Notes under the pieces: model-generated
What the model was told of the DNA's origin: nothing
Databases searched by the model: none
Seen by the model: only the letters and a program-made list of their open reading frames with translations
Virus record (IMG/VR): IMGVR_UViG_2534681658_000013
Direction: 5' to 3' (one strand)
Length of the DNA: 35,120 bases
Source: a virus
Lineage: Duplodnaviria > Heunggongvirae > Uroviricota > Caudoviricetes
Made by a program: the position numbers and the translations under genes
Shown: positions 1 through 11,826 of the stretch, piece after piece
Numbering within the stretch: the first letter of the stretch is position 1
How the letters are laid out: every line of letters begins with the position of its first letter

Positions 1-30
1 CGCGATGATGACGGGTTCTCGTTTCTGCAT
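1..30 (-). CDS. Start of a leftward gene running off the window (only about 10 codons visible, MQKREPVIIA...)
   Basis: ATG at 30..28 on the minus strand preceded by a GAGGAA Shine-Dalgarno-like motif; the frame stays open to the window edge. Far too short to assign a function. Confidence 0.2.
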   Translation of the reverse strand, partial: MQKREPVIIA

Positions 31-59
31 ACTGATTCCTCGCGGTGCTGTTTCGCTTA

Positions 60-188
60 TCAGCCGTTAGATTTTGCCGAACTGGAAAGCGCCTGTTTAA
101 ACTCACTGAAGCTGAGAACTTCTTCGCCTTCGGCAAGACCTTCGAAGTATTCTTCGTAAGCCTTTTCCATGATTGTGTCGAAATCCAT
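60..188 (-). CDS. Small acidic hypothetical protein (42 aa, MDFDTIMEKAYEEYFEGLAEGEEVLSFSEFKQALSSSAKSNG)
   Basis: Hand-translated minus-strand ORF below the 60-aa cutoff of the ORF track. Its ATG lies 1 nt after the TGA of the upstream 78-aa ORF (TGAtATG), which suggests coupled translation in the leftward early operon. Confidence 0.3.
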   Translation of the reverse strand: MDFDTIMEKAYEEYFEGLAEGEEVLSFSEFKQALSSSAKSNG

Positions 189-189
189 A

Positions 190-426
190 TCACTCACCTG
201 AGTTTCTTTCCAGCCAGCGACGGGCACCATTTTCGGTTTTAAACGTTTTGCTTTTGGTATACGTCATCGCGGTGAACGTACCGTCCTGGTTGGGGAACAC
301 GCCACATACCAGAGATTCGCTGTTGCCAAGATCGATAGTATCCATGCTGACCTCATTTCCCCTTAACGCCGGGGTAGCGGAACAAAAACCTGCTGCATAG
401 TTATTAAAGTTGAACCCTGCCGTCAT
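190..426 (-). CDS. Hypothetical early-left protein (78 aa)
   Basis: ORF track; same orientation as and downstream of the repressor gene (position analogous to lambda rex or early-left genes). No recognisable motif. Confidence 0.4.
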   Translation of the reverse strand: MTAGFNFNNYAAGFCSATPALRGNEVSMDTIDLGNSESLVCGVFPNQDGTFTAMTYTKSKTFKTENGARRWLERNSGE

Positions 427-642
427 GTTCTTACGCCTCGGGCTGGCTACTTAACCCCTGACCACTGCCTGGTAACTCGAAGTATTGCCCTGCATTCTGT
501 GGGGCGGGGTGGGTGGCAGGTATATAATGTACTTTGCGTTCATTGTTGTAAAGTACTTTTAGTACATTCTGTGTGTAAAAAAATGAGATGGGATAAAGTG
601 AAGCACAAACCCGGAGGAAGGCGCTACCGGATTTATGCTGGT

Positions 643-1062
643 TTAAGAGGCTTTTTGTTTTTTCTTTCGTGCTAACTCTTCGTAAATTGCATTGTACTTC
701 TGTTTTTTCTCTTCAAGAGTTTTTAAAAGTTCATCTGTCTCACTGTCAGGGAGCTCGTCCAGAAGGTCAATGATGATTTTTTGTCTTGGATTTAACTCCT
801 GATAGAAACGTACCTGTCCACTTTCTTCTGTATCCTCTCCCAAAAGATAGGTTGGTGTTGTTCCTATTAGTGTTGCTAATTCCCTTAATTTCTCCCGGCG
901 AGGAATTGTTTCGCCATTAAACCATTTGCTAACCGCTTTTGGTGTTAATTTCATTCGACGGGCAATTTCTGCCTGCCTTCCATGTTGTTCATAACCAGCG
1001 TTTTCACAGGCTAGCGCAAGCCTACTGGCGAACTCTTTACGCGCTTTATCTTCATGAACCAT
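643..1062 (-). CDS. Phage repressor, HTH (XRE/Cro-CI type) DNA-binding protein without an S24 peptidase domain (RacR-like immunity repressor)
   Basis: 139-aa ORF with a helix-turn-helix signature in the N-terminal half and an acidic/lysine-rich C-terminus; transcribed divergently from a Cro-like gene across a 79-bp operator-type region. Confidence 0.8.
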   Translation of the reverse strand: MVHEDKARKEFASRLALACENAGYEQHGRQAEIARRMKLTPKAVSKWFNGETIPRREKLRELATLIGTTPTYLLGEDTEESGQVRFYQELNPRQKIIIDLLDELPDSETDELLKTLEEKKQKYNAIYEELARKKKQKAS

Positions 1063-1141
1063 AAGTTCAATGATATTCGCTCTTGAATGTACTGTCAGTT
1101 CTGTTATAGCATGTACTCAAAGTTCACATTGTGAGGGTGAT
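1063..1141. promoter_or_regulatory. Divergent promoter/operator region between the repressor and Cro-like genes
   Basis: 79-bp intergenic region between divergent genes; contains repeated GTACT motifs and a TCACAtTGTGA inverted repeat immediately upstream of the Cro-like start. Specific -35/-10 boxes not assigned. Confidence 0.45.
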
Positions 1142-1396
1142 ATGAACCAGAAAACACTTGAAGATGTAATCAAAACTGTTCGCGTTGCTGTTGTGGCCGA
1201 CGTTTGTGGTGTCAGCCAAAGAGCAATCTATAAATGGATGGATAACGGAAAATTGCCTCGCACAGAATATACCGGCGAAACAAATTACGCTGAAAAAATC
1301 GCTCTTGCATCAAACGGATTATTTTCTGCCGATGCAATTTTAACTATTGGCAGGAATAAAACTACTACGAAAAAGCTGATGGGAGTTGATTCATGA
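1142..1396 (+). CDS. Cro-like / YdaS-family HTH regulator
   Basis: ATG at 1142 preceded by GAGGGTGA; HTH-like segment VADVCGVSQRAIYKWMDNGKLP; position directly opposite the repressor. The ORF track reports a longer frame from 1070, but the internal start is better placed. Confidence 0.7.
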   Translation: MNQKTLEDVIKTVRVAVVADVCGVSQRAIYKWMDNGKLPRTEYTGETNYAEKIALASNGLFSADAILTIGRNKTTTKKLMGVDS

Positions 1397-1818
1397 AAAT
1401 CAAGCATGAACACATCCGCATGGCGATGAATGCCTGGGCGCATCCGGACGGCGAAAAAGTACCGGCTGCGAAAATTACCAAAGCGTATTTCGAGCTGGGA
1501 ATGACGTTCCCGGAACTGTATGACGACAGCCATCCGGAAGCCCTGGCCCGTAATACCCAGAAAATTTTCCGTTGGCTGGATAAAGACACCCCTGATGCTG
1601 TTGAAAAAATGCAGGCTCTGTTACCGGCGATCGAAAAGGCGATGCCGCCTTTGCTGGTGGCCCGTATGCGCAGCCACAGTTCTGAATATTACCGTGAGAT
1701 CGTCGAACGGAGGGATCGGCTGGTGAAGGATGTCGATGATTTTGTTGCGTCAGCGGTTGTTTTGTATGACCAGATGAATCGCGGCGGCCCGGCAGGGAAT
1801 GCTGTGGTGATGCACTAA
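1393..1818 (+). CDS. YdaT-like (CII-position) regulatory protein
   Basis: 141 aa, begins MKIKHEHI, which I recall as the N-terminus of the Rac-prophage YdaT family; overlaps the Cro-like stop by 4 nt; occupies the cII position. Assignment is from memory and synteny. Confidence 0.55.
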   Translation: MKIKHEHIRMAMNAWAHPDGEKVPAAKITKAYFELGMTFPELYDDSHPEALARNTQKIFRWLDKDTPDAVEKMQALLPAIEKAMPPLLVARMRSHSSEYYREIVERRDRLVKDVDDFVASAVVLYDQMNRGGPAGNAVVMH

Positions 1819-1840
1819 AAGCACGGTGTTCGGGGGTTTT

Positions 1841-2803
1841 ATGAGCAGCAAGCTTCATGGTCTTGTCTGGGAAGGGTGCGCCTTCACCGGCATGATCTTA
1901 TCCAGGGTGGCGGTTATGGCCCGTCTTGCAGACTACAGCAATGACGAGGGCGTGTCATGGCCTGCCATTGAAACTATCCGGCGTCAGATCGGTGCAAGAA
2001 GTGAATCCACAGTGAAATCGGCTATTGCAGAACTGGCGAAAGAGGGCTGGCTGACGAAGGAAGAGCGTAAGGTCGGTGGGCGTAATGTAAGCAATATCTA
2101 TCGGCTTAATGTGGAAAAACTCGAAGCAGCTGCGGCGGCGGCGCGTGAGTCATATAAACCGAAAAGAAAAATTAGCCCGGCAAAAAATGACCCGTTAACA
2201 GTTGACCCGTCAAATATTGACCCCTCAACGGTTGACCCGTCAAATTTTGATGGATCAACCGTTGATAAAAAACTGCCGATTAGGGGGGCGATGATTGACC
2301 CCGATCCGTCAGTATTAAAACCTGATCCGTCAGATAAAAGATCTTCTTGTCCGGACGCTTCGCAACCGGACCCGCAGACGGCTGAACAGGATTTTTTAAC
2401 CCGACACCCTGACGCGGTTGTGTTCAGTGCGATAAAACGCCAGTGGGGAAGTCAGGAAGATTTGGTGTGCGCACAGTGGATCTGGGGACGAATCGTGAGT
2501 CTTTACGAGCAGGCGGCCAGCTATGATGGCGAGATCACTAGACCGAAAGAACCCAACTGGACAGCATGGGCCAATGACGTTCGCACAATGCGGATGCTGG
2601 ATGGCAGAACTCACAGACAAATTTGTGAAATGTTTGGGCGTCTCCAGCGGGATTCGTTCTGGGTAAAAAACATCATGAGTCCGGCAAAACTCCGGGAAAA
2701 ATGGGATGAACTGGTTATCCGCCTGGGGCGTTTGCCTGCGCAGCGTTGCGTGAATCACATTTCTGAACCGGACACTGAAATACCGCCGGGATTCAGGGGG
2801 TGA
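1841..2803 (+). CDS. Replication initiation protein (lambda O-like) with internal iterons
   Basis: N-terminal winged-helix-like segment; central region encodes repeated peptide motifs (DPLTVDPSNIDPSTVDPSNFDGSTVD) caused by direct DNA repeats; immediately followed by a DnaC-like gene. Start could instead be the GTG at 1826. Confidence 0.7.
   Translation: MSSKLHGLVWEGCAFTGMILSRVAVMARLADYSNDEGVSWPAIETIRRQIGARSESTVKSAIAELAKEGWLTKEERKVGGRNVSNIYRLNVEKLEAAAAAARESYKPKRKISPAKNDPLTVDPSNIDPSTVDPSNFDGSTVDKKLPIRGAMIDPDPSVLKPDPSDKRSSCPDASQPDPQTAEQDFLTRHPDAVVFSAIKRQWGSQEDLVCAQWIWGRIVSLYEQAASYDGEITRPKEPNWTAWANDVRTMRMLDGRTHRQICEMFGRLQRDSFWVKNIMSPAKLREKWDELVIRLGRLPAQRCVNHISEPDTEIPPGFRG
2188..2335. repeat. Iteron array / candidate phage origin of replication inside the O-like gene
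   Basis: Direct repeats of TGACCCGTCAA-like units (tgacccgttaaca, ttgacccgtcaaat, attgacccctcaacgg, ttgacccgtcaaat, ttgatggatcaaccg, tgattgaccccgatccgtcag, cctgatccgtcag) with an A-rich stretch in the middle, as in lambda ori within O. Confidence 0.6.
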
Positions 2804-2809
2804 CGTGTC

Positions 2810-3556
2810 ATGAAAAACATTGCGGCAGGCGGCGTTCTTGAACGTATCCGAAGACTGGCTCCGCCACATGTAACCGCCCCATTCAGAACGGTAGCGAAGT
2901 GGCACGAGTGGCAACTTGCTGAAGGCCAGAAACGTAGCGAGGAGATCAACCGCCTGAATCGCCAGTTGCGGGTGGAAAAAATTCTGAATCGCTCAGGCAT
3001 CCAGCCGTTGCACCGTAAATGCTCGTTTGCGAATTACCAGGTGCAGAACGACGGTCAGCGATACGCGTTGAGCCAGGCGAAATCTATCGCTGATGAACTG
3101 ATGACCGGATGCACAAATTTCGCGTTTAGCGGAAAACCTGGTACCGGGAAGAACCACTTAGCAGCAGCTATCGGGAATCGCCTGCTGAAAGACGGTCAGA
3201 CAGTGATTGTGGTTACCGTGGCTGATGTTATGAGTGCCCTCCCCGCCAGCTATGACGATGGGCAGTCAGGCGAAAAATTTTTGCGGGAACTGTGCGAAGT
3301 GGATCTGCTGGTTCTTGATGAAATTGGCATTCAGCGCGAGACGAAAAACGAGCAGGTGGTACTGCACCAGATTGTTGATCGCCGGACAGCGTCGATGCGC
3401 AGCGTGGGGATGCTGACAAACCTGAACTATGAGGCCATGAAAACATTGCTCGGCGAGCGGATTATGGATCGCATGACCATGAACGGCGGGCTATGGGTGA
3501 ATTTTAACTGGGAGAGCTGGCGTCCGAATGTCGTCCAGCCAGGAATTGCGAAGTAA
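2810..3556 (+). CDS. DnaC-like helicase loader / replication protein (IstB-like AAA+ ATPase)
   Basis: Walker [12 protein letters not shown] and Walker B LLVLDEIG motifs; 248 aa; follows the O-like gene as in Rac (YdaV-like) and other lambdoid prophages. Confidence 0.85.
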
Positions 3557-3578
3557 TTTTTACCGGGAGAAAAATTTA

Positions 3579-4340
3579 ATGGAGACTGTTTTTGACGCAC
3601 TGAAAGCAATGGGAAAAGCCACATCCATAGAACTTGCTGCGCGACTTGATATCAGTCGTGAAGAAGTGCTGAACGAACTATGGGAACTGAAAAAGGCTGG
3701 TTTTGTTGATAAAAGCGCGTACACCTGGCGTGTGGCTGATAACAACGTTCAGCAGGAACAGCCAGCGCAGGCAGAACTGCCGGAAGAAATCACCACAGCA
3801 ACAGTAGCGAAAATCTCAGAGTGCGATTTAACCGCGACGATTGAACAACGAGGACCACAAACGGCTGATGAGCTGGCTACATTGTTTGGTACCACATCAC
3901 GCAAAGTGGCTTCAACGCTGGCAATGGCAATCAGCAAAGGTCGTCTGATTCGCGTAAATCAGGGCGGTAAATTTCGTTACTGCATACCGGGCGATAATTT
4001 ACCAGCAGAGCCGAAAGCAGCATCGGTAGCGGAAACTGATGGTAAGGCCTTTCCTCATACCGCAGGTGTTGCGTTACCAGTACAGGAGGCTGCAACACAG
4101 GAAGATATTAAAACAGAAACTGTGGCGGACATTGTGCAGTCGCTGCCATCGTTTACTGAAACGCGAGCGGATGACCTGGTTTTACCATCACTGCATATGG
4201 CAAACCGCGAACTGCGTCGGGCGAAAAATCATGTCCAGAAGTGGGAGCGAGTCTGCGCCGCGCTGCGGGAGCTGAACAAGCACCGGGATATTGTTCGACA
4301 GATTACTGATTCTTCCCGCCGTGTTGTATCGGAAAAGTGA
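3579..4340 (+). CDS. Hypothetical phage protein, probably winged-helix DNA-binding
   Basis: ATG at 3579 with GGGAGA RBS; N-terminal wHTH-like segment ([30 protein letters not shown]). No family assigned. Confidence 0.55.
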
Positions 4341-4355
4341 TTGCCGGAGGCGCTT

Positions 4356-4787
4356 ATGGCAAAAGTATTTACACAAGAAGAGCGGGAAAAAATTAAAGGG
4401 CAGGTTGTTGAGCTAGTACGCCGGAGTGGGCGCGAGACGTTACGGCAACTGGAAGCCAAGACAGGTGCGACAAGATATCTGATGAGCGTTCTCGCCAGAG
4501 AGCTGGTTGCCAGTGGCGATGTATACAACTCTGGTTACGGGTTATTCCCGTCTGAACAGGCTCGTAAGGACTGGCAAAATGCCCGCAAAAAACTATCCAG
4601 GGCAAAGGTGAAGAAACCATCTGTGGTTGATCCGGACCTTATCTGGTCATTACCAGACGGAGAAATACGCCGCTACGACAGGCGTCTGAACATAATCTGT
4701 CGCGAGTGCCGGAAGAGCGAAGTTATGCAGCGTGTGCTGGCGTTTTATCAGAATGGTTTTCGAGAGAGGCTTGGAGATCAGGGATGA
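4356..4787 (+). CDS. Hypothetical phage protein
   Basis: ATG at 4356 with GGAGG RBS 7 nt upstream; 143 aa; last gene before the AT-rich island. Confidence 0.5.
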   Translation: MAKVFTQEEREKIKGQVVELVRRSGRETLRQLEAKTGATRYLMSVLARELVASGDVYNSGYGLFPSEQARKDWQNARKKLSRAKVKKPSVVDPDLIWSLPDGEIRRYDRRLNIICRECRKSEVMQRVLAFYQNGFRERLGDQG

Positions 4788-4980
4788 ATAGAACGATGAA
4801 GGATGGAAGCTACATATTCTCGGTACTAAGATTTATTTTTCTGACACAAAATGACCATTTGGCGTTACATAATCCCAAAAAAACGTATCAAAAATCTCAA
4901 AATGCGTTACGATTAGAGAGTATTTTGATTCTGCGTGCTCATTTTTTGATTGCTGTGGCTTTTTGTTGTGGGAGTGTTGA

Positions 4981-6135
4981 ATGGATTATTTATCAGAAGT
5001 GTTAAAAATCATTGAAGGTGCAACAAAGGCAAATGCTTCGATGGCTAGTAATTATGCTGGGTTGCTGGCAGATAAGCTCGAACAAAAAGGGGAGGTCAAG
5101 CAAGCCAGAATGATAAGAGAAAGGTTGCTTAGAGCTCCCCAGGCGTTGGCAGGAGCTCAAAGGGCTGGAGGTGGGATATCTCTGGGCTCATTACCGGTAG
5201 ATATTGATAGTCGACTCAACACTGTTGATGTCAGTTATCCTAAATTAGACAGTTCAGAGATTTTTCTGCCTGCAGCAATCAGTACCCGTGTTGAAGAGTT
5301 TATCACTAATGTTCAACGTTATGATGAGTTTGTTAAAGCTGATGCAGCATTGCCGAGTCGTATGCTCGTGTATGGAAAGCCAGGAACAGGTAAGACTATG
5401 TTATCTAAGTACATCGCTACCCGCTTAGATTTTCCACTTCTTACAGTGCGTTGCGATACTTTGATTAGTAGTTTATTGGGACAAACCAGCAAAAATCTTA
5501 GACAGGTTTTCGATTATGTAATGCAGAGGCCATCAGTGCTTTTTTTAGACGAATTTGATGCTTTAGCTGGAGCAAGAGGTAATGAGAGAGATATAGGTGA
5601 GCTTCAGCGAGTTGTCATTTCACTATTGCAGAATATGGATGCGGCATCAGAGGATACGGTAATTATTGCCTCAACTAACCATGAGCAACTTCTGGATCCT
5701 GCAATCTGGAGGCGATTTAGCTTCAGAATTCCAATGCCTCTGCCTGACATACATCAGAGAGAGTTAATTTGGAAAAATCGTTTAAAGAATATGATATGTA
5801 GCGATCTAGATTTAAGTGATTTATCAAGAAAATCGGAGGGATTATCCGGAGCAATAATTGAACAGGTGAGCTTGGATGCACGTAGGGATGCAGTTATTGA
5901 AGGTGCAAGTGTGATAAATCACCATAAATTGTATAGGCGTTTGTATCTTGCGCAATCGCTTATGGAAGGTGTAAATTTAAGCACTTACGAAGATGAAATT
6001 CGTTGGTTACGTTCTAAAGATAAAAAATTATTTTCTATCAGAGTTCTTGCTAATTTGTACAAACTTACATCAAGAGTAATTTCAAACATTCTGAAGGAGT
6101 CAGGAGCATATGAGCAGAAGGGGTACACAGTTTAG
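4981..6135 (+). CDS. AAA+ ATPase (classic AAA family), first gene of a candidate two-gene defence cassette (IetA-like?)
   Basis: Walker A GKPGTGKT (5374..5397), Walker B LFLDEFD (DE at 5548..5553), second region of homology STNHEQLLDPAIWRRF; GGGAGTG RBS before the ATG at 4981; AT-rich codon usage distinct from flanking phage genes. Confidence 0.85.
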   Translation: MDYLSEVLKIIEGATKANASMASNYAGLLADKLEQKGEVKQARMIRERLLRAPQALAGAQRAGGGISLGSLPVDIDSRLNTVDVSYPKLDSSEIFLPAAISTRVEEFITNVQRYDEFVKADAALPSRMLVYGKPGTGKTMLSKYIATRLDFPLLTVRCDTLISSLLGQTSKNLRQVFDYVMQRPSVLFLDEFDALAGARGNERDIGELQRVVISLLQNMDAASEDTVIIASTNHEQLLDPAIWRRFSFRIPMPLPDIHQRELIWKNRLKNMICSDLDLSDLSRKSEGLSGAIIEQVSLDARRDAVIEGASVINHHKLYRRLYLAQSLMEGVNLSTYEDEIRWLRSKDKKLFSIRVLANLYKLTSRVISNILKESGAYEQKGYTV

Positions 6136-8374
6136 TAACGCAAAAGTTACAAACCCAATGTTAAGAATCCCTTTTTCCAGTAGTGACTTGGGTGCAATAG
6201 TAAACGCTGGCGGTGGGGCAAAGGTATTGGTTGATGTAACAGCCGAATATAGACAAGGGCTAGTAAGAAATTTAACAACCAGTAAACATTATTTAGAATC
6301 CAAACTTTCAGAGTACCCTGGAAGCTTGGGTACTTTGGTTTTCAAATTAAGAGACCAGGGAATAGCCAAAACGCATAGGCCGAACAAAATTGCTCAAGAG
6401 GCTGGATTGCAAAATGCCGGTCATGCCAAAATAGATGAAATGTTGGTTGCTGCTCATGCCGGCTGTTTTGACGTATTAGAGTCAGTCATTTTACATCGGA
6501 ATATTAAAGCGATTTTGGCTAATCTAAGCGCGATTGAGCGCATTGAACCTTGGGATGAGAATAGGAAGGTTCCAGGAGGCACTGATGGTTTGTTTGAATC
6601 ATCAAACATCCTTGTACGACTATTTGAGTACACAGGTGAAGATGCAACTTACAACAACTATGAAAACGTTATTTCTATATTAGAACAACACGGAGTTAAA
6701 TATGATGAGATTAGACCAAAATGTGGTCTTCCCTTATTAAGGATAATGGATTTATCCCCAAATGATAGATATATATTAGACATTCTCATTGATTACCCGG
6801 GTATAAGAACGTTAATTCCAGAACCAAAATATTCAGCATTCCCGGTTAGTGTAAGTGATTCTGTTGGCATTGAAACAAATAGCTTTCCCGTACCATCAGA
6901 AGAATTACCCATTGTTGCTGTATTTGACACTGGGGTAAGCCCCATCGCGGCAACAATTACTCCTTGGGTAGTGAGTAGGGAAACATACGTAATTCCTCCT
7001 GATACGAGTTATGAACATGGGACTATGGTGTCTTCATTGATATCAGGCGCTCATTTTTTAAATGACAATCATCCATGGATTCCTGATACAAAATCTAAAA
7101 TCCATGATGTTTGTGCTTTAGATGGAAATGGATCTTATATATCAGATTTAATTCTGAGGCTAGCAGATGCTGTAAATAAAAGACCAGATATAAAAGTCTG
7201 GAATTTGTCTTTGGGAGGCGGACCATGTAATGAGCAGATGTTTAGTGATTTTGCGATGGAGTTAGATCGGCTCAGCGATAAATTTGGTATTTTGTTTGTA
7301 GTTGCTGCAGGTAATTATGTAGATGAACCTATACGTACATGGCCAAATCCTGATCCGCTTGGAGGTGCTGATTTAATTTCCTCTCCTGGAGAGTCAGTCC
7401 GAGCACTAACAGTTGGTTCAGTTTCTCATATGGAAGCTAATGATGCTTTAAGTGAAATTGGAACACCGACACCATATACTCGTCGTGGCCCTGGGCCTGT
7501 ATTTACTCCAAAGCCAGATATAATCCATGCTGGCGGTGGGGTTCATAGACCTTGGAATGTAGGAGCAAGCAGTTTAAAGGTCGTAGGGCCAGATAATAGG
7601 CTTTGCTCTAATTTTGGTACTAGTTTTGCTGCTCCAATTGTGGCAAGTTTAGCTGCGCATACATGGCAGAGAATAGCCACTAATTCAGACTTTAATGTTT
7701 CACCATCATTGATTAAAGCATTATTAATTCATTCCGCTCAATTATCTTCTCCTGATTACTCGCCAAGTGAAAGACGCTATTTGGGAGCGGGAATTCCTAA
7801 TGAGGTTATTGAGACCTTATATGATAGTGATGATAGGTTTACTCTGATTTTCCAAACATTCTTGGTTCCTGGGGTGAGGTGGAGAAAGGAAAACTATCCC
7901 ATACCATCGGCACTTATTCAAAATGGAAAATTTAAAGGTGAGATTGTAATTACTGCTGCATATGCACCACCACTGAACTCTAATGCCGGCAGTGAATATG
8001 TTCGCGCGAACGTAGAGCTAAGTTTTGGCTTAATTGAGAATAATACTATAAAAGGAAAAGTACCTATGGAAGGAGAAAACGGTCAATCTGGATATGAGAG
8101 AGCTCAAATTGAGCATGGTGGAAAGTGGTCACCAGTAAAAATTCATCGCAAGGCATTTAATAAAGGAATTACTTCGGGTAACTGGGCTCTTCAAGCTAAA
8201 ACAACGTTGAGAGCGAATGAACCGGCCTTAATGGAGCCTTTACCTGTAACTATTGTAGTAACTTTAAAATCATTAGATGGAAACACACAAGTTTATGCTG
8301 ATGGCGTAAGAGCTTTAAATGCTAATAACTGGGCTCACTATCCATTGCCTGCTCGTGTGCCAGTTTCCGTATAA
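6110..8374 (+). CDS. Subtilisin-like serine peptidase (MEROPS S8) with large N- and C-terminal domains of unknown function; second gene of the cassette (IetS-like?)
   Basis: Catalytic triad in subtilase order: Asp in VAVFDTGVS (codon 6926..6928), His in HGTMVS (7016..7018), Ser in GTSFAAP (7622..7624). No N-terminal signal peptide. AGGAG RBS; the start overlaps the ATPase gene by 26 nt. Confidence 0.85.
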   Translation: MSRRGTQFSNAKVTNPMLRIPFSSSDLGAIVNAGGGAKVLVDVTAEYRQGLVRNLTTSKHYLESKLSEYPGSLGTLVFKLRDQGIAKTHRPNKIAQEAGLQNAGHAKIDEMLVAAHAGCFDVLESVILHRNIKAILANLSAIERIEPWDENRKVPGGTDGLFESSNILVRLFEYTGEDATYNNYENVISILEQHGVKYDEIRPKCGLPLLRIMDLSPNDRYILDILIDYPGIRTLIPEPKYSAFPVSVSDSVGIETNSFPVPSEELPIVAVFDTGVSPIAATITPWVVSRETYVIPPDTSYEHGTMVSSLISGAHFLNDNHPWIPDTKSKIHDVCALDGNGSYISDLILRLADAVNKRPDIKVWNLSLGGGPCNEQMFSDFAMELDRLSDKFGILFVVAAGNYVDEPIRTWPNPDPLGGADLISSPGESVRALTVGSVSHMEANDALSEIGTPTPYTRRGPGPVFTPKPDIIHAGGGVHRPWNVGASSLKVVGPDNRLCSNFGTSFAAPIVASLAAHTWQRIATNSDFNVSPSLIKALLIHSAQLSSPDYSPSERRYLGAGIPNEVIETLYDSDDRFTLIFQTFLVPGVRWRKENYPIPSALIQNGKFKGEIVITAAYAPPLNSNAGSEYVRANVELSFGLIENNTIKGKVPMEGENGQSGYERAQIEHGGKWSPVKIHRKAFNKGITSGNWALQAKTTLRANEPALMEPLPVTIVVTLKSLDGNTQVYADGVRALNANNWAHYPLPARVPVSV

Positions 8375-11463: not shown

Positions 11464-11539
11464 GGCCCTTTAGCTCAGTGGTGAGAGCGAGCGACTCATA
11501 ATCGCCAGGTCGCTGGTTCAAATCCAGCAAGGGCCACCA
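11464..11539 (+). tRNA. tRNA-Ile2 (anticodon CAU, lysidine type; ileX/ileZ-like)
   Basis: Hand-folded cloverleaf: acceptor GGCCCTT/AAGGGCC, D-stem GCTC/GAGC, anticodon loop CTCATAA, T-arm GCTGG-TTCAAAT-CCAGC, encoded CCA. Very close to my recollection of E. coli ileX, so more likely Ile2 than elongator Met. Confidence 0.8.
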
Positions 11540-11639: not shown

Positions 11640-11713
11640 GCGTTGTTAGCTCAGCCGGACAGAGCAATTGCCTTCTAAGCAATCGGTCACTGGTTCGAAT
11701 CCAGTACAGCGCG
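11640..11713 (+). tRNA. tRNA-Arg (anticodon UCU, reads AGA)
   Basis: Hand-folded cloverleaf: acceptor GCGTTGT/ACAGCGC (one G-U pair), anticodon stem ATTGC/GCAAT with loop CTTCTAA, T-arm ACTGG-TTCGAAT-CCAGT; CCA not encoded. Resembles argN/argO-type tRNAs of lambdoid prophages. Confidence 0.75.
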
Positions 11714-11826
11714 CTATATTCATTCTTCCAGATTCCTTCCGGCAGAGCCTTATACTGAAATATACCTGGCTCAGGATATTGTTGAAAATATTTTATGTTT
11801 GTCAAAAATAAAAGTTCTGTTAAGTA

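What the first reader, a model, noticed from the sequence alone, without database searches (positions are those of the whole stretch)
2188..2335. Iteron array inside the O-like replication gene, candidate ori
At least six direct repeats of a TGACCCGTCAA-like unit lie inside the replication initiator ORF, giving the repeated DPS.VDPS peptide, with an A-rich stretch embedded. This is the lambda-ori architecture, but the iteron sequence differs from what I recall for lambda, implying a distinct initiator specificity.
Basis: seen in the sequence. Interest (0 to 1): 0.4.

Follow-up and report, generated by a model that had tools for sequence, protein, structure and literature searches.

The report
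Prophage replication origin inside initiator gene
The repeats are real and are almost certainly the replication origin of an E. coli lambda-like prophage, sitting inside the gene for the protein that binds them; this layout is well known from phage lambda, here with a different DNA-binding domain and a different repeat sequence.

Summary
Observation confirmed. Five copies of the 12-bp palindrome TTGACCCGTCAA lie at exact 15-bp spacing (2187-2258). They are followed by a half-site plus A6 tract, a decayed inverted site pair, and two 21-bp GATC-bearing AT-rich repeats (2303-2345). No other match with two or fewer mismatches occurs in the 35 kb.

The host gene (1841-2803) encodes a three-part initiator: an N-terminal winged-helix domain (Pfam HTH_36, not lambda's Phage_rep_O), a lambda-O-like C-terminal domain (36% identity, E 1e-25), and a DnaT-like tail. 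A DnaC-like loader gene follows.

The array starts at codon 116; lambda's annotated iterons start at codon 117 of O.

Relatives from Erwinia, Mixta and Edwardsiella keep the same motif, phase and GATC element. Synonymous sites are preserved there (79-97% same codon versus 41-45% in the flanking domains, 62% for the SfIV C-domain), although amino-acid identity is lower. More distant N-domains carry different palindromic repeats at the same place, one with a 23-bp period that cannot be a peptide repeat.

Verdict: a lambda-type origin with its own specificity, inferred by comparison and not shown experimentally. It is an ordinary kind of element and a new, apparently undescribed member. Interest is low to moderate.

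The parts
1841..2803 (+). Initiator gene (320 aa; RefSeq start 1841, longest ORF from GTG 1826). It contains the whole candidate origin.
   Evidence: ORF list. RefSeq annotation of an allele 100% identical over 1826-2803. PHROG 391 'replication initiation O-like' matches both halves.
1841..2152 (+). Coding region for the N-terminal winged-helix DNA-binding domain (aa 1-104), the presumed iteron reader.
   Evidence: Pfam HTH_36, 27.8 bits against a cut-off of 25; relatives score 35-45 bits. The AlphaFold model (pLDDT 81) is a winged helix-turn-helix resembling MarR/ArsR/PadR/PaaX dimers.
2153..2186 (.). A-rich leader directly before the array (68% AT, 56% A on the + strand).
   Evidence: Composition and duplex stability.
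2187..2198 (+). Iteron 1, ATGACCCGTTAA (2 mismatches). Absent, as a clean 15-bp deletion, in two other E. coli alleles.
2202..2213 (+). Iteron 2, TTGACCCGTCAA (perfect; internal dyad TTGAC-NN-GTCAA).
2217..2228 (+). Iteron 3, TTGACCCCTCAA (1 mismatch).
2232..2243 (+). Iteron 4, TTGACCCGTCAA (perfect).
2247..2258 (-). Iteron 5, TTGATGGATCAA, with an inverted centre (2 mismatches on the minus strand). With iterons 3-4 it forms a 41-bp near-palindrome, 2225-2265.
2262..2275 (.). Half-site TTGA followed by an A6 tract (TTGATAAAAAACTG). A half-site followed by an A-rich run recurs at this position in relatives (GGTAAAAAC in Edwardsiella, GGCAAAAAA in SfIV, phiP27 and L012).
2279..2302 (.). Decayed inverted site pair, AGGGGGGCGATGATTGACCCC. 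It corresponds to the palindrome GGGGTCAA-TGG-TTGACCCC in the Erwinia, Mixta and Edwardsiella relatives L005-L009 (variants in L010 and L011).
2303..2345 (.). Two 21-bp repeats with three GATC sites (GATCCGTCAGTATTAAAACCT / GATCCGTCAGATAAAAGATCT). Candidate DNA-unwinding element.
   Evidence: Repeat D4. Overlaps the least stable 40-mer of the gene, 2309-2348. With the GATC at 2253 this is the densest GATC cluster in the window, 4 sites within 100 bp, P about 2e-4. Conserved across different iteron classes. A 21-bp unit deletion occurs in 1 of 80 IMG/VR alleles.
2346..2385 (.). GC-rich segment (33% AT) with a short inverted repeat, GTCCGG (2349-2354) / CCGGAC (2366-2371). The sequence, including its synonymous sites, is highly conserved in most relatives that share this C-terminal domain (diverged in L010 and L011).
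2334..2766 (+). Coding region for the lambda-O-like C-terminal domain, a separate mosaic module.
   Evidence: BLASTP against lambda O: 36% identity over 141 aa, E 1e-25. Breakpoints at 2334 against HannyBb and at 2767 against phage 666R9.
2750..2800 (+). DnaT-like C-terminal tail, VNHISEPDTEIPPGFRG. It travels with the DnaC-like gene.
   Evidence: phmmer against PDB DnaT chains and NCBIfam DnaT, tail only. Breakpoint at 2767. Relatives followed by a lambda-P gene lack it.
2810..3556 (+). DnaC-like helicase loader gene (248 aa).
   Evidence: Pfam IstB_IS21 3.7e-19 and Bac_DnaA ATPase 1.6e-8. PHROG 50 'DnaC-like helicase loader'.

Best explanation
The segment from about 2153 to 2372 is the replication origin of a lambdoid E. 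coli prophage, embedded in the linker-coding part of its own initiator gene.

Proposed mechanism:
- Inferred, by analogy with lambda: after derepression, rightward early transcription makes the initiator and the DnaC-like loader.
- Inferred from fold, site symmetry and co-variation: dimers of the initiator's N-terminal winged-helix domain bind the five to six 12-bp palindromic iterons (TTGA-SSSS-TCAA) packed at 15-bp phase. They also bind the site pair next to the AT-rich element, building an O-some-like nucleoprotein complex.
- Inferred from stability and conservation: the strain opens the adjacent AT-rich, GATC-bearing repeats (2303-2345).
- Inferred from homology and tail-loader co-variation: the lambda-O-like C-terminal domain with its DnaT-like tail brings in the DnaC-like loader with host DnaB.

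Shown here:
- The array is non-random.
- It is under DNA-level rather than protein-level constraint.
- It is conserved together with the N-domain across genera.
- It is replaced by other repeats wherever the N-domain is replaced.
- It occupies the same place in the gene as ori-lambda.
For: 1. Non-random array: five sites in 72 bp at exact 15-bp phase and none elsewhere in the window; simulations give a maximum cluster of 2.
2. DNA-level constraint: against homologues from Erwinia, Mixta and Edwardsiella and from phage SfIV, identical amino acids use the same codon in 79-97% of cases in the origin segment (aa 105-180). The figure is 41-45% in the flanking domains (62% for the SfIV C-domain). 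Amino-acid identity is lower in the origin segment, about 51-54% against about 75% in the N-domain and 54-63% in the C-domain. Fisher P is 1e-6 to 5e-5.
3. The motif survives orientation flips that change the peptide (DPS/DPP to EGS/EGL/DGS) while TTGA....TCAA is kept.
4. Co-variation with the N-domain:
   - N-domains 63-74% identical keep the TTGA-SSSS-TCAA or CTGAC-NN-GTCA type at 15 bp.
   - phiP27 (49% identical) has TTCAGAATCTGAA at 15 bp.
   - L012-L014 (49-61% identical) have CCTCCAGAATCTGGAGG at 30-33 bp.
   - HannyBb has an unrelated N-domain and the same C-domain, and carries five 23-bp repeats. That period is not a multiple of 3, so it cannot be a peptide repeat.
5. Same position as ori-lambda: codon 116 against 117. 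The C-domain is homologous to lambda O. The least stable 40-mer lies directly after the sites, with a lambda positive control.
6. Cassette exchange: phage vB_EcoS-666R9 shares flanks at 94-96% identity but has a different initiator between 1417 and 2767. The cognate origin must therefore travel inside that block.
7. Unit-sized indels among E. coli alleles: 15 bp for an iteron, 21 bp for a GATC repeat.
Against: - There is no experimental evidence for this initiator type. I found no paper describing these iterons.
- The AT-rich element is only 63% AT, against 79% in lambda, and is less unstable (-46.9 against -43.0 kcal/mol per 40-mer).
- The site pair next to it is decayed in every E. coli allele examined, relative to Erwinia and Edwardsiella.
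- The 15-bp phase puts neighbouring sites about 154 degrees apart on the helix. This differs from lambda's 20-24 bp spacing, so the complex geometry cannot simply be copied from lambda.
- The prophage may be defective. An allele 100% identical over the initiator gene sits in a prophage with an IS66-family element (ISCro1) inserted in its terminase gene.
Confidence: 0.8

Rival explanations
1. The repeats only encode a flexible, repetitive (V/I)DPS(N/T) linker peptide that arose by slippage. The DNA sequence as such has no function.
For: The 15-bp period equals five codons and gives an in-frame peptide repeat. The region lies between two folded domains. Unit-sized indels show that slippage happens.
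Against: - Synonymous sites are conserved about twice as well here as in the flanking domains, while amino acids are conserved less well than in the N-domain.
- The peptide changes radically (P to G, D to E, S to L or P) where the unit is inverted, yet TTGA....TCAA is kept.
- Each unit is a DNA palindrome, which a peptide repeat does not require.
- The HannyBb array at the same place has a 23-bp period, out of frame.
Confidence: 0.05
2. The sites are genuine initiator-binding sites but serve mainly for autoregulation or copy control (a roadblock to early transcription, or handcuffing). The site where replication starts lies elsewhere.
For: Iterons in plasmids do double duty in control. The AT-rich element here is only moderately AT-rich.
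Against: - No second cluster of the motif exists in the 35-kb window.
- The adjacent GATC/AT-rich element is conserved even across iteron classes, and it overlaps the least stable stretch of the gene.
- The arrangement and gene position copy ori-lambda, where the same sites are the origin.
Confidence: 0.08
3. The TTGAC repeats are -35-like promoter elements, an internal promoter cluster, and not initiator sites.
For: TTGAC is five-sixths of the sigma-70 -35 consensus.
Against: The consensus scan finds no promoter-like site on either strand of 1700-2900, against 1.0 expected by chance. Related arrays with CCAGAATCTGG or TCAGAATCTGA cores have no -35 resemblance yet occupy the same place.
Confidence: 0.02
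4. It is an origin of the right kind but a dead one, a relic in a decaying prophage that no longer fires.
For: The inverted site pair next to the AT-rich element is degenerate in E. coli alleles compared with Erwinia and Edwardsiella. An allele 100% identical over the initiator gene lies in a prophage with an IS66-family element in its terminase gene.
Against: - The initiator and loader ORFs are intact.
- The origin segment is nearly invariant in 80 IMG/VR contigs, and full-length alleles occur in 1514 of 5426 complete E. coli genomes.
- In an allele 87% identical overall, the origin segment differs by only about six substitutions in 220 bp apart from the one-iteron deletion.
All of this points to continuing selection.
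Confidence: 0.12

Closest known systems
ori-lambda within gene O of phage lambda, and its Stx-phage variants with six iterons
   Same: - An iteron array with internal dyad symmetry lies inside the initiator gene at the junction of the N- and C-domains: codon 116 here, 117 in lambda.
- An AT-rich, least stable stretch lies immediately downstream.
- The initiator's C-terminal domain is homologous (36% identity, E 1e-25).
- Iteron number varies between relatives, as with 4 against 6 in lambda and Stx phages (PMC7466680).
- Relatives in Erwinia and Edwardsiella even pair with a lambda-P-family loader.
   Different: - The N-terminal DNA-binding domain is Pfam HTH_36, not Phage_rep_O.
- The iteron is a 12-bp TTGA-SSSS-TCAA at 15-bp phase and in both orientations. 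Lambda has 18-bp ATCCCTCAAAACGAGGGA sites at 20-24 bp.
- The AT-rich element is weaker (63% against 79% AT) and built from GATC-containing 21-bp repeats.
- The loader here is DnaC-like, and the initiator ends in a DnaT-like tail.
Origins of other lambdoid phages with exchanged initiator specificity (434, phi80, 82, 21, P22 gene 18). Recalled from the classical literature, not tested here.
   Same: The general rule is that the N-terminal half of the initiator and the iterons are exchanged together as one specificity module. Here the breakpoints are at 1417, 2334 and 2767.
   Different: tblastn with this N-domain recovered no phi80 or P22 record in the phage collection. It recovered SfII, SfIV, phiP27, YeP2 and Klebsiella phages. 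This is therefore a different specificity family from the classical ones, as far as that search shows.
Iteron-type plasmid origins (P1 oriR, pSC101, R6K, F) and oriC 13-mers. Recalled from general knowledge.
   Same: A winged-helix initiator binds repeated sites next to an AT-rich unwinding element. GATC sites are concentrated in the unwinding element, as in P1 oriR and the oriC 13-mers.
   Different: - Plasmid iterons are typically 17-22 bp spaced about 22 bp apart, on one face of the helix. Here the sites are 12 bp at 15-bp spacing.
- There is no conserved DnaA box. The single match at 2110-2118 is at chance level and absent from relatives.
- The origin lies inside the initiator's coding sequence.
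E. coli DnaT-DnaC (replication-restart primosome)
   Same: The last 17 residues of the initiator match the DnaT C-terminus (VNTVSEPDSQIPPGFRG). As in the dnaT-dnaC operon, the next gene is a DnaC-type loader.
   Different: Only the tail matches: 16 bits against a family cut-off of 201. The rest of the protein is unrelated to DnaT. The function of this tail is not established in the DnaT papers I read (PMC13377028).

Membership tests
Lambda-type phage origin (origin embedded in initiator gene) | Three or more repeated sites (iterons) inside the initiator's own coding sequence, at the boundary between the N- and C-terminal domains | tested here: met
   Five sites lie at 2187-2258, starting at codon 116 of a 320-codon gene. 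Lambda's annotated iterons start at codon 117 of 299.
Lambda-type phage origin (origin embedded in initiator gene) | Each iteron has internal dyad symmetry (a dimer binding site) | tested here: met
   TTGAC-NN-GTCAA. Across 52 units from 10 loci the outer TTGA and TCAA positions are the conserved ones.
Lambda-type phage origin (origin embedded in initiator gene) | AT-rich, easily melted region directly downstream of the last iteron | tested here: met
   The least stable 40-mer of the gene is 2309-2348, at the 96th percentile of the window. The same calculation picks lambda's known AT-rich region. The element is weaker than lambda's, at 63% against 79% AT.
Lambda-type phage origin (origin embedded in initiator gene) | Iteron sequence co-varies with the initiator's N-terminal domain (specificity module) | tested here: met
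   Four iteron classes track the N-domain subgroups. An unrelated N-domain on the same C-domain has an unrelated 23-bp array.
Lambda-type phage origin (origin embedded in initiator gene) | The fragment supports initiator-dependent replication, and the initiator binds the iterons | not testable with these tools
   This needs cloning, EMSA or footprinting. The only natural hint is a 16-kb circular record made of this early region, which has homopolymer errors and may be an assembly artefact.
Lambda O protein family | N-terminal domain belongs to Pfam Phage_rep_O (PF04492) | tested here: not met
   Lambda O hits PF04492 at 5.7e-36. The window protein hits HTH_36 (PF13730) and not PF04492. BLASTP finds no N-terminal similarity.
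Lambda O protein family | C-terminal domain homologous to lambda O (the loader-interaction domain) | tested here: met
   BLASTP gives 36% identity over 141 aa, E 1e-25.
Lambda O protein family | Partner is a lambda P-family helicase loader encoded immediately downstream | tested here: not met
   The downstream gene is IstB/DnaC-like. Erwinia and Edwardsiella relatives of the same initiator do have PF06992 lambda P.
Iteron plasmid origins (Rep/iteron type) | Iterons of about 17-22 bp spaced about two helical turns apart, with DnaA box(es) beside the AT-rich region | tested here: not met
   The sites are 12 bp at 15-bp phase, a 154-degree rotation per site. The single TTWTNCACA match is at chance frequency and not conserved.
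DnaT (primosomal protein I) | Full-length match to the DnaT family model | tested here: not met
   NCBIfam NF002770 scores 16.3 bits against a cut-off of 201. Only the last 20 residues align.

The most novel reading that the evidence does not exclude
This initiator family may build a different kind of origin complex from lambda's. TTGA and TCAA half-sites alternate every 7-8 bp over about 75 bp, so winged-helix dimers would coat the DNA almost continuously on alternating faces. The unwinding element is a conserved GATC repeat, which would place firing under Dam/SeqA control. The DnaT-like tail (IPPGFRG) may be the peptide that recruits DnaC-type loaders, which would also give a testable role for the unexplained C-terminus of E. 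coli DnaT. It would also suggest that dnaT-dnaC descends from such a phage cassette.
Probability: 0.2. Interest if true: 0.55.

Novelty: new member of a known kind. Interest (0 to 1): 0.3.

Why it matters
- It gives a concrete, testable origin for a prophage replication module found full-length in about 28% of complete E. coli genomes (1514 of 5426). RefSeq labels the gene only 'helix-turn-helix domain-containing protein', with no origin annotated.
- It provides a natural set of matched initiator-iteron pairs, four specificity classes on related winged-helix domains. These could be used to work out a recognition code or to build orthogonal replicons.
- The co-variation between the C-terminal tail and the loader type (lambda P against DnaC-like) points to which part of the initiator recruits the helicase loader.
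- None of this overturns current understanding. It extends the lambda paradigm to another DNA-binding domain.

Tried and rejected
- DnaA box: one TTWTNCACA match at 2110-2118, at chance frequency in the window and absent from all relatives. Rejected.
- Internal sigma-70 promoter or terminator in 1700-2900: none found.
- Rfam families in 1-6000: none found.
- Rac oriJ: Rac has a known active origin (PMC3945230; Potrykus 2000, cited in PMC11014345). However, the Rac-type YdaU initiators fetched (L001, L002) are unrelated apart from the tail and show no comparable array. No link could be made.
- Literature search for the 12-mer and for iterons in DnaC-type or non-lambdoid Stx phage replication regions: no description found. 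The Stx phage 'P27' in PMC7466680 has lambda-like iterons. It does not appear to be the phiP27 record (AJ298298) used here, whose initiator is HTH_36-type.
- Plasmid collection: a 16-kb circular record (NZ_CP148542) consists only of the early-right region of such a prophage. This would resemble a lambda-dv plasmid, but the record has homopolymer indels and may be an assembly artefact. It was not used as evidence.
- IMG/VR scan for diverse relatives: it returned only 80 loci with N-domains 100% identical. These were useful for population variation but not for diversity.
- The role of the DnaT tail in the recent preprimosome structure paper: not addressed there.
Full report
**Context**

The window is a lambdoid prophage of E. 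coli. Positions 1826-2803 are 100% identical to a prophage in strain 602354 that is integrated beside ompW. The first 17.8 kb of the window differ from that record at only 8 positions.

The early-right operon reads as follows:

| Coordinates | Strand | Product |
|---|---|---|
| 643-1062 | - | repressor |
| to 1396 | + | Cro-like protein |
| 1393-1818 | + | YdaT-family protein |
| 1841-2803 | + | 320-aa 'helix-turn-helix domain-containing protein' |
| 2810-3556 | + | DnaC/IstB-like ATPase |
| 3528-4340 | + | DUF1627 protein |

**The observation**

The 12-mer TTGACCCGTCAA occurs at 2187, 2202, 2217, 2232 and 2247.
- The mismatch counts are 2, 0, 1, 0 and 2. The last site fits better on the minus strand.
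- The spacing is exactly 15 bp.
- Tandem Repeats Finder reports period-15 and period-30 arrays over 2167-2265.
- Every match with two or fewer mismatches in the 35 kb lies in this 72-bp stretch.
- 200 Markov-1 simulations never gave more than 2 sites within 75 bp.

Each unit is itself a palindrome (TTGAC-NN-GTCAA). The junctions between units (TCAA-NNN-TTGA) are also palindromic, so TTGA and TCAA half-sites alternate every 7-8 bp.

Downstream of the array come four further elements:
- a half-site plus A6 tract (2262-2275);
- a degenerate inverted pair (2279-2302);
- two 21-bp repeats, GATCCGTCAGTATTAAAACCT and GATCCGTCAGATAAAAGATCT (2303-2345);
- a GC-rich segment with a short inverted repeat (2346-2385).

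The description and coordinates are otherwise correct.

**The gene**

The N-terminal 104 residues hit Pfam HTH_36. The AlphaFold model (pLDDT 81) is a winged helix-turn-helix. Its nearest solved folds are dimeric MarR/ArsR/PadR/PaaX-type DNA binders, although those matches are weak (E about 1e-3, TM about 0.5).

Residues 153-293 align to the C-terminal domain of lambda O at 36% identity, E 1e-25. Lambda O's own N-domain belongs to a different Pfam family, Phage_rep_O.

The last 17 residues, VNHISEPDTEIPPGFRG, match the C-terminus of E. coli DnaT. PHROG 391, 'replication initiation O-like', covers both halves of the protein.

**Is the repeat a DNA element or a peptide repeat?**

The 15-bp period is in frame and encodes (V/I)DPS(N/T), so this needed testing. 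Four results favour a DNA element.

1. Synonymous-site conservation. I compared the gene codon by codon with homologues from Erwinia, Mixta and Edwardsiella and from phage SfIV.
   - Among identical amino acids, the same codon is used in 41-45% of cases in the N- and C-terminal domains (62% for the SfIV C-domain). Synonymous sites there are close to saturation.
   - In the segment aa 105-180 the figure is 79-97%.
   - Amino-acid identity in that segment is about 51-54%. That is lower than in the N-domain (about 75%) and similar to or lower than in the C-domain (54-63%).
   - Fisher P is 1e-6 to 5e-5.
2. Inverted units. In the relatives the units occur in both orientations (TTGACCCC..., TTGAGGGG...). 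The peptide flips from DP(S/P) to (E/D)G(S/L) while TTGA....TCAA is kept.
3. An out-of-frame array. Phage HannyBb has the same C-terminal domain (85% DNA identity from 2334 onwards) joined to an unrelated N-domain. At the same place (codon 115) it has five copies of a different repeat with a 23-bp period, which cannot be a peptide repeat.
4. Within E. coli. Alleles 94% and 87% identical overall differ from the window by the clean loss of one 15-bp unit. Apart from that deletion they differ at only two and about six positions in the 220-bp origin segment. One of 80 IMG/VR alleles has lost exactly one 21-bp GATC repeat.

**Co-variation with the DNA-binding domain**

| Locus or phage | N-domain identity to window | Repeat | Period |
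|---|---|---|---|
| Erwinia, Mixta, Edwardsiella (L005-L011) | 63-74% | TTGA-SSSS-TCAA, 3-9 in-phase copies | 15 bp |
| SfIV | 66% | TCTGACCCGTCAAAA, 4 copies | 15 bp |
| Klebsiella phage Kp4866-6 | 67% | TTTGAGGGGTCAAA type | 15 bp |
| phiP27 | 49% | TTCAGAATCTGAA | 15 bp |
| Citrobacter, Symbiopectobacterium and a soil MAG (L012-L014) | 49-61% | 17-bp palindrome CCTCCAGAATCTGGAGG | 30-33 bp |

The element GATCC-N5-TA..AAAAC-NT-GATCC-N5-..AAAA-GATCT follows the last site in all these classes, although the encoded peptides differ (DPSV against DPQV). In the window its three GATC sites, together with the one at 2253, form the densest GATC cluster in 35 kb: 4 sites within 100 bp, P about 2e-4.

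**Comparison with ori-lambda, tested and not recalled**

The GenBank record of lambda annotates four 18-bp iterons starting at codon 117 of O, spaced 20-24 bp apart. A 42-bp stretch of 79% AT follows them. The window's array starts at codon 116.

A nearest-neighbour stability scan picks lambda's known AT-rich region as the least stable 40-mer of gene O. The same scan picks 2309-2348 as the least stable 40-mer of the window's gene. The window's element is weaker, at 63% AT and -46.9 against -43.0 kcal/mol.

**Mosaic structure**

BLAST breakpoints divide the region into three exchangeable blocks:
- Positions 1417-2766 are replaced by a Rac-YdaU-type initiator in phage vB_EcoS-666R9, whose flanks are 94-96% identical to the window.
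- Within that block, 2334-2766 (the lambda-O-like core) is shared with HannyBb and mEp460.
- Position 2767 onwards comprises the DnaT-like tail plus the DnaC-like gene.

Because the initiator can be swapped between near-identical flanks in an isolated phage, its cognate origin must travel inside the swapped block.

The Erwinia and Edwardsiella homologues keep the N-domain, the iterons and the C-domain core. They end in a different tail (...EAWENTL and ...QGWEDVL) and are followed by a lambda-P-family gene (PF06992, E 3e-58 and 2e-51). The tail therefore co-varies with the type of helicase loader.

**Most likely mechanism**

Only the sequence anatomy, its constraint and its co-variation are shown here. 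Every other step is inferred.
1. Early rightward transcription produces the initiator and the loader.
2. Winged-helix dimers occupy the closely packed iterons and the site next to the GATC element.
3. The resulting complex melts the AT-rich GATC repeats.
4. The lambda-O-like C-domain and the DnaT-like tail deliver the DnaC-like loader with host DnaB.
5. The GATC sites may put firing under Dam/SeqA control. This step is speculation by analogy with oriC and P1 oriR, recalled from general knowledge.

The 15-bp phase rotates successive sites by about 154 degrees. The geometry must therefore differ from the lambda O-some.

**Rivals**

- Peptide-linker-only: contradicted by the synonymous-site and frame evidence above.
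- Promoter cluster: finds no support.
- Control sites with the origin elsewhere: cannot be excluded without experiments. It is disfavoured because there is no second motif cluster in the window and because the unwinding-type element is conserved next to the sites.
- Origin of the right kind but inactive in this particular prophage: this remains possible. It is set against intact ORFs and strong conservation, with 1514 of 5426 complete E. coli genomes carrying a full-length allele.

**Novelty**

The kind of element is textbook: an origin inside the initiator gene, with the N-domain and the iterons exchanged as one module. Variation in iteron number among lambdoid phages is also documented (PMC7466680).

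I found no description of this particular iteron, or of the origin of HTH_36-type O-like initiators, in the searchable literature. That library is incomplete.

I file it as a new member of a known kind with some variant features:
- a different DNA-binding domain family;
- 12-bp sites at 15-bp phase in both orientations;
- a GATC-built unwinding element;
- a DnaT-like tail with a DnaC-type loader.

Interest is low to moderate.

Noticed in passing
window 2750-2800 (also L001, L002, L003, L013-L015, L017): The initiator ends in VNHISEPDTEIPPGFRG, which matches the C-terminus of E. coli DnaT. The same tail sits on otherwise unrelated initiators such as Rac YdaU, usually upstream of a DnaC-like gene. 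Relatives followed by a lambda-P gene lack it. SfIV and HannyBb have the tail but no phage loader gene directly downstream, so they may recruit host DnaC.
   Followed up: partly
window 2225-2265: The switch in iteron orientation creates a 41-bp near-perfect palindrome (20-nt arms, 90% complementary). The single strand of 2180-2350 folds better than all 200 shuffles (z = -3.9), mostly through this hairpin, so a cruciform at the origin is possible.
   Followed up: partly
window 1417, 2334 and 2767: There are sharp mosaic breakpoints against other phages (vB_EcoS-666R9, HannyBb/mEp460). They split the replication region into three exchangeable blocks: the YdaT-like gene with the initiator up to its tail, the lambda-O-like core, and the tail with the loader.
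   Followed up: yes
L021 (NZ_CP148542.1, whole record): A 16-kb circular 'plasmid' record from a dog E. coli consists only of the early-right region of such a prophage, from repressor to lysis genes, with this initiator and origin. It could be a lambda-dv-like replicon or an assembly artefact. The origin region carries two homopolymer indels.
   Followed up: partly
window 4981-8374: The RefSeq annotation of a near-identical prophage labels these genes iteA (anti-phage ATPase, 4981-6135) and iteS (S8 peptidase, about 6110-8374). This is a defence system carried in the prophage's early region.
   Followed up: no
window 11464-11539 and 11640-11714: Two phage-borne tRNA genes. ARAGORN calls the first tRNA-Met (anticodon CAT), whereas RefSeq annotates the equivalent gene as tRNA-Ile, which would be the lysidine-modified type. 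The second is tRNA-Arg (TCT).
   Followed up: no
window 2110-2118 (minus strand): A DnaA-box-like sequence, TTTTCCACA, lies about 70 bp upstream of the iterons. It occurs at chance frequency in the window and is not conserved in any relative, so it is probably meaningless.
   Followed up: yes
L001 2794-3582 and L002 1228-2016 (Rac YdaU-type initiators): No iteron-like array was detected inside these initiator genes at the sensitivity used, so the origin of the Rac-type module (oriJ in the literature) is organised differently or lies elsewhere.
   Followed up: partly
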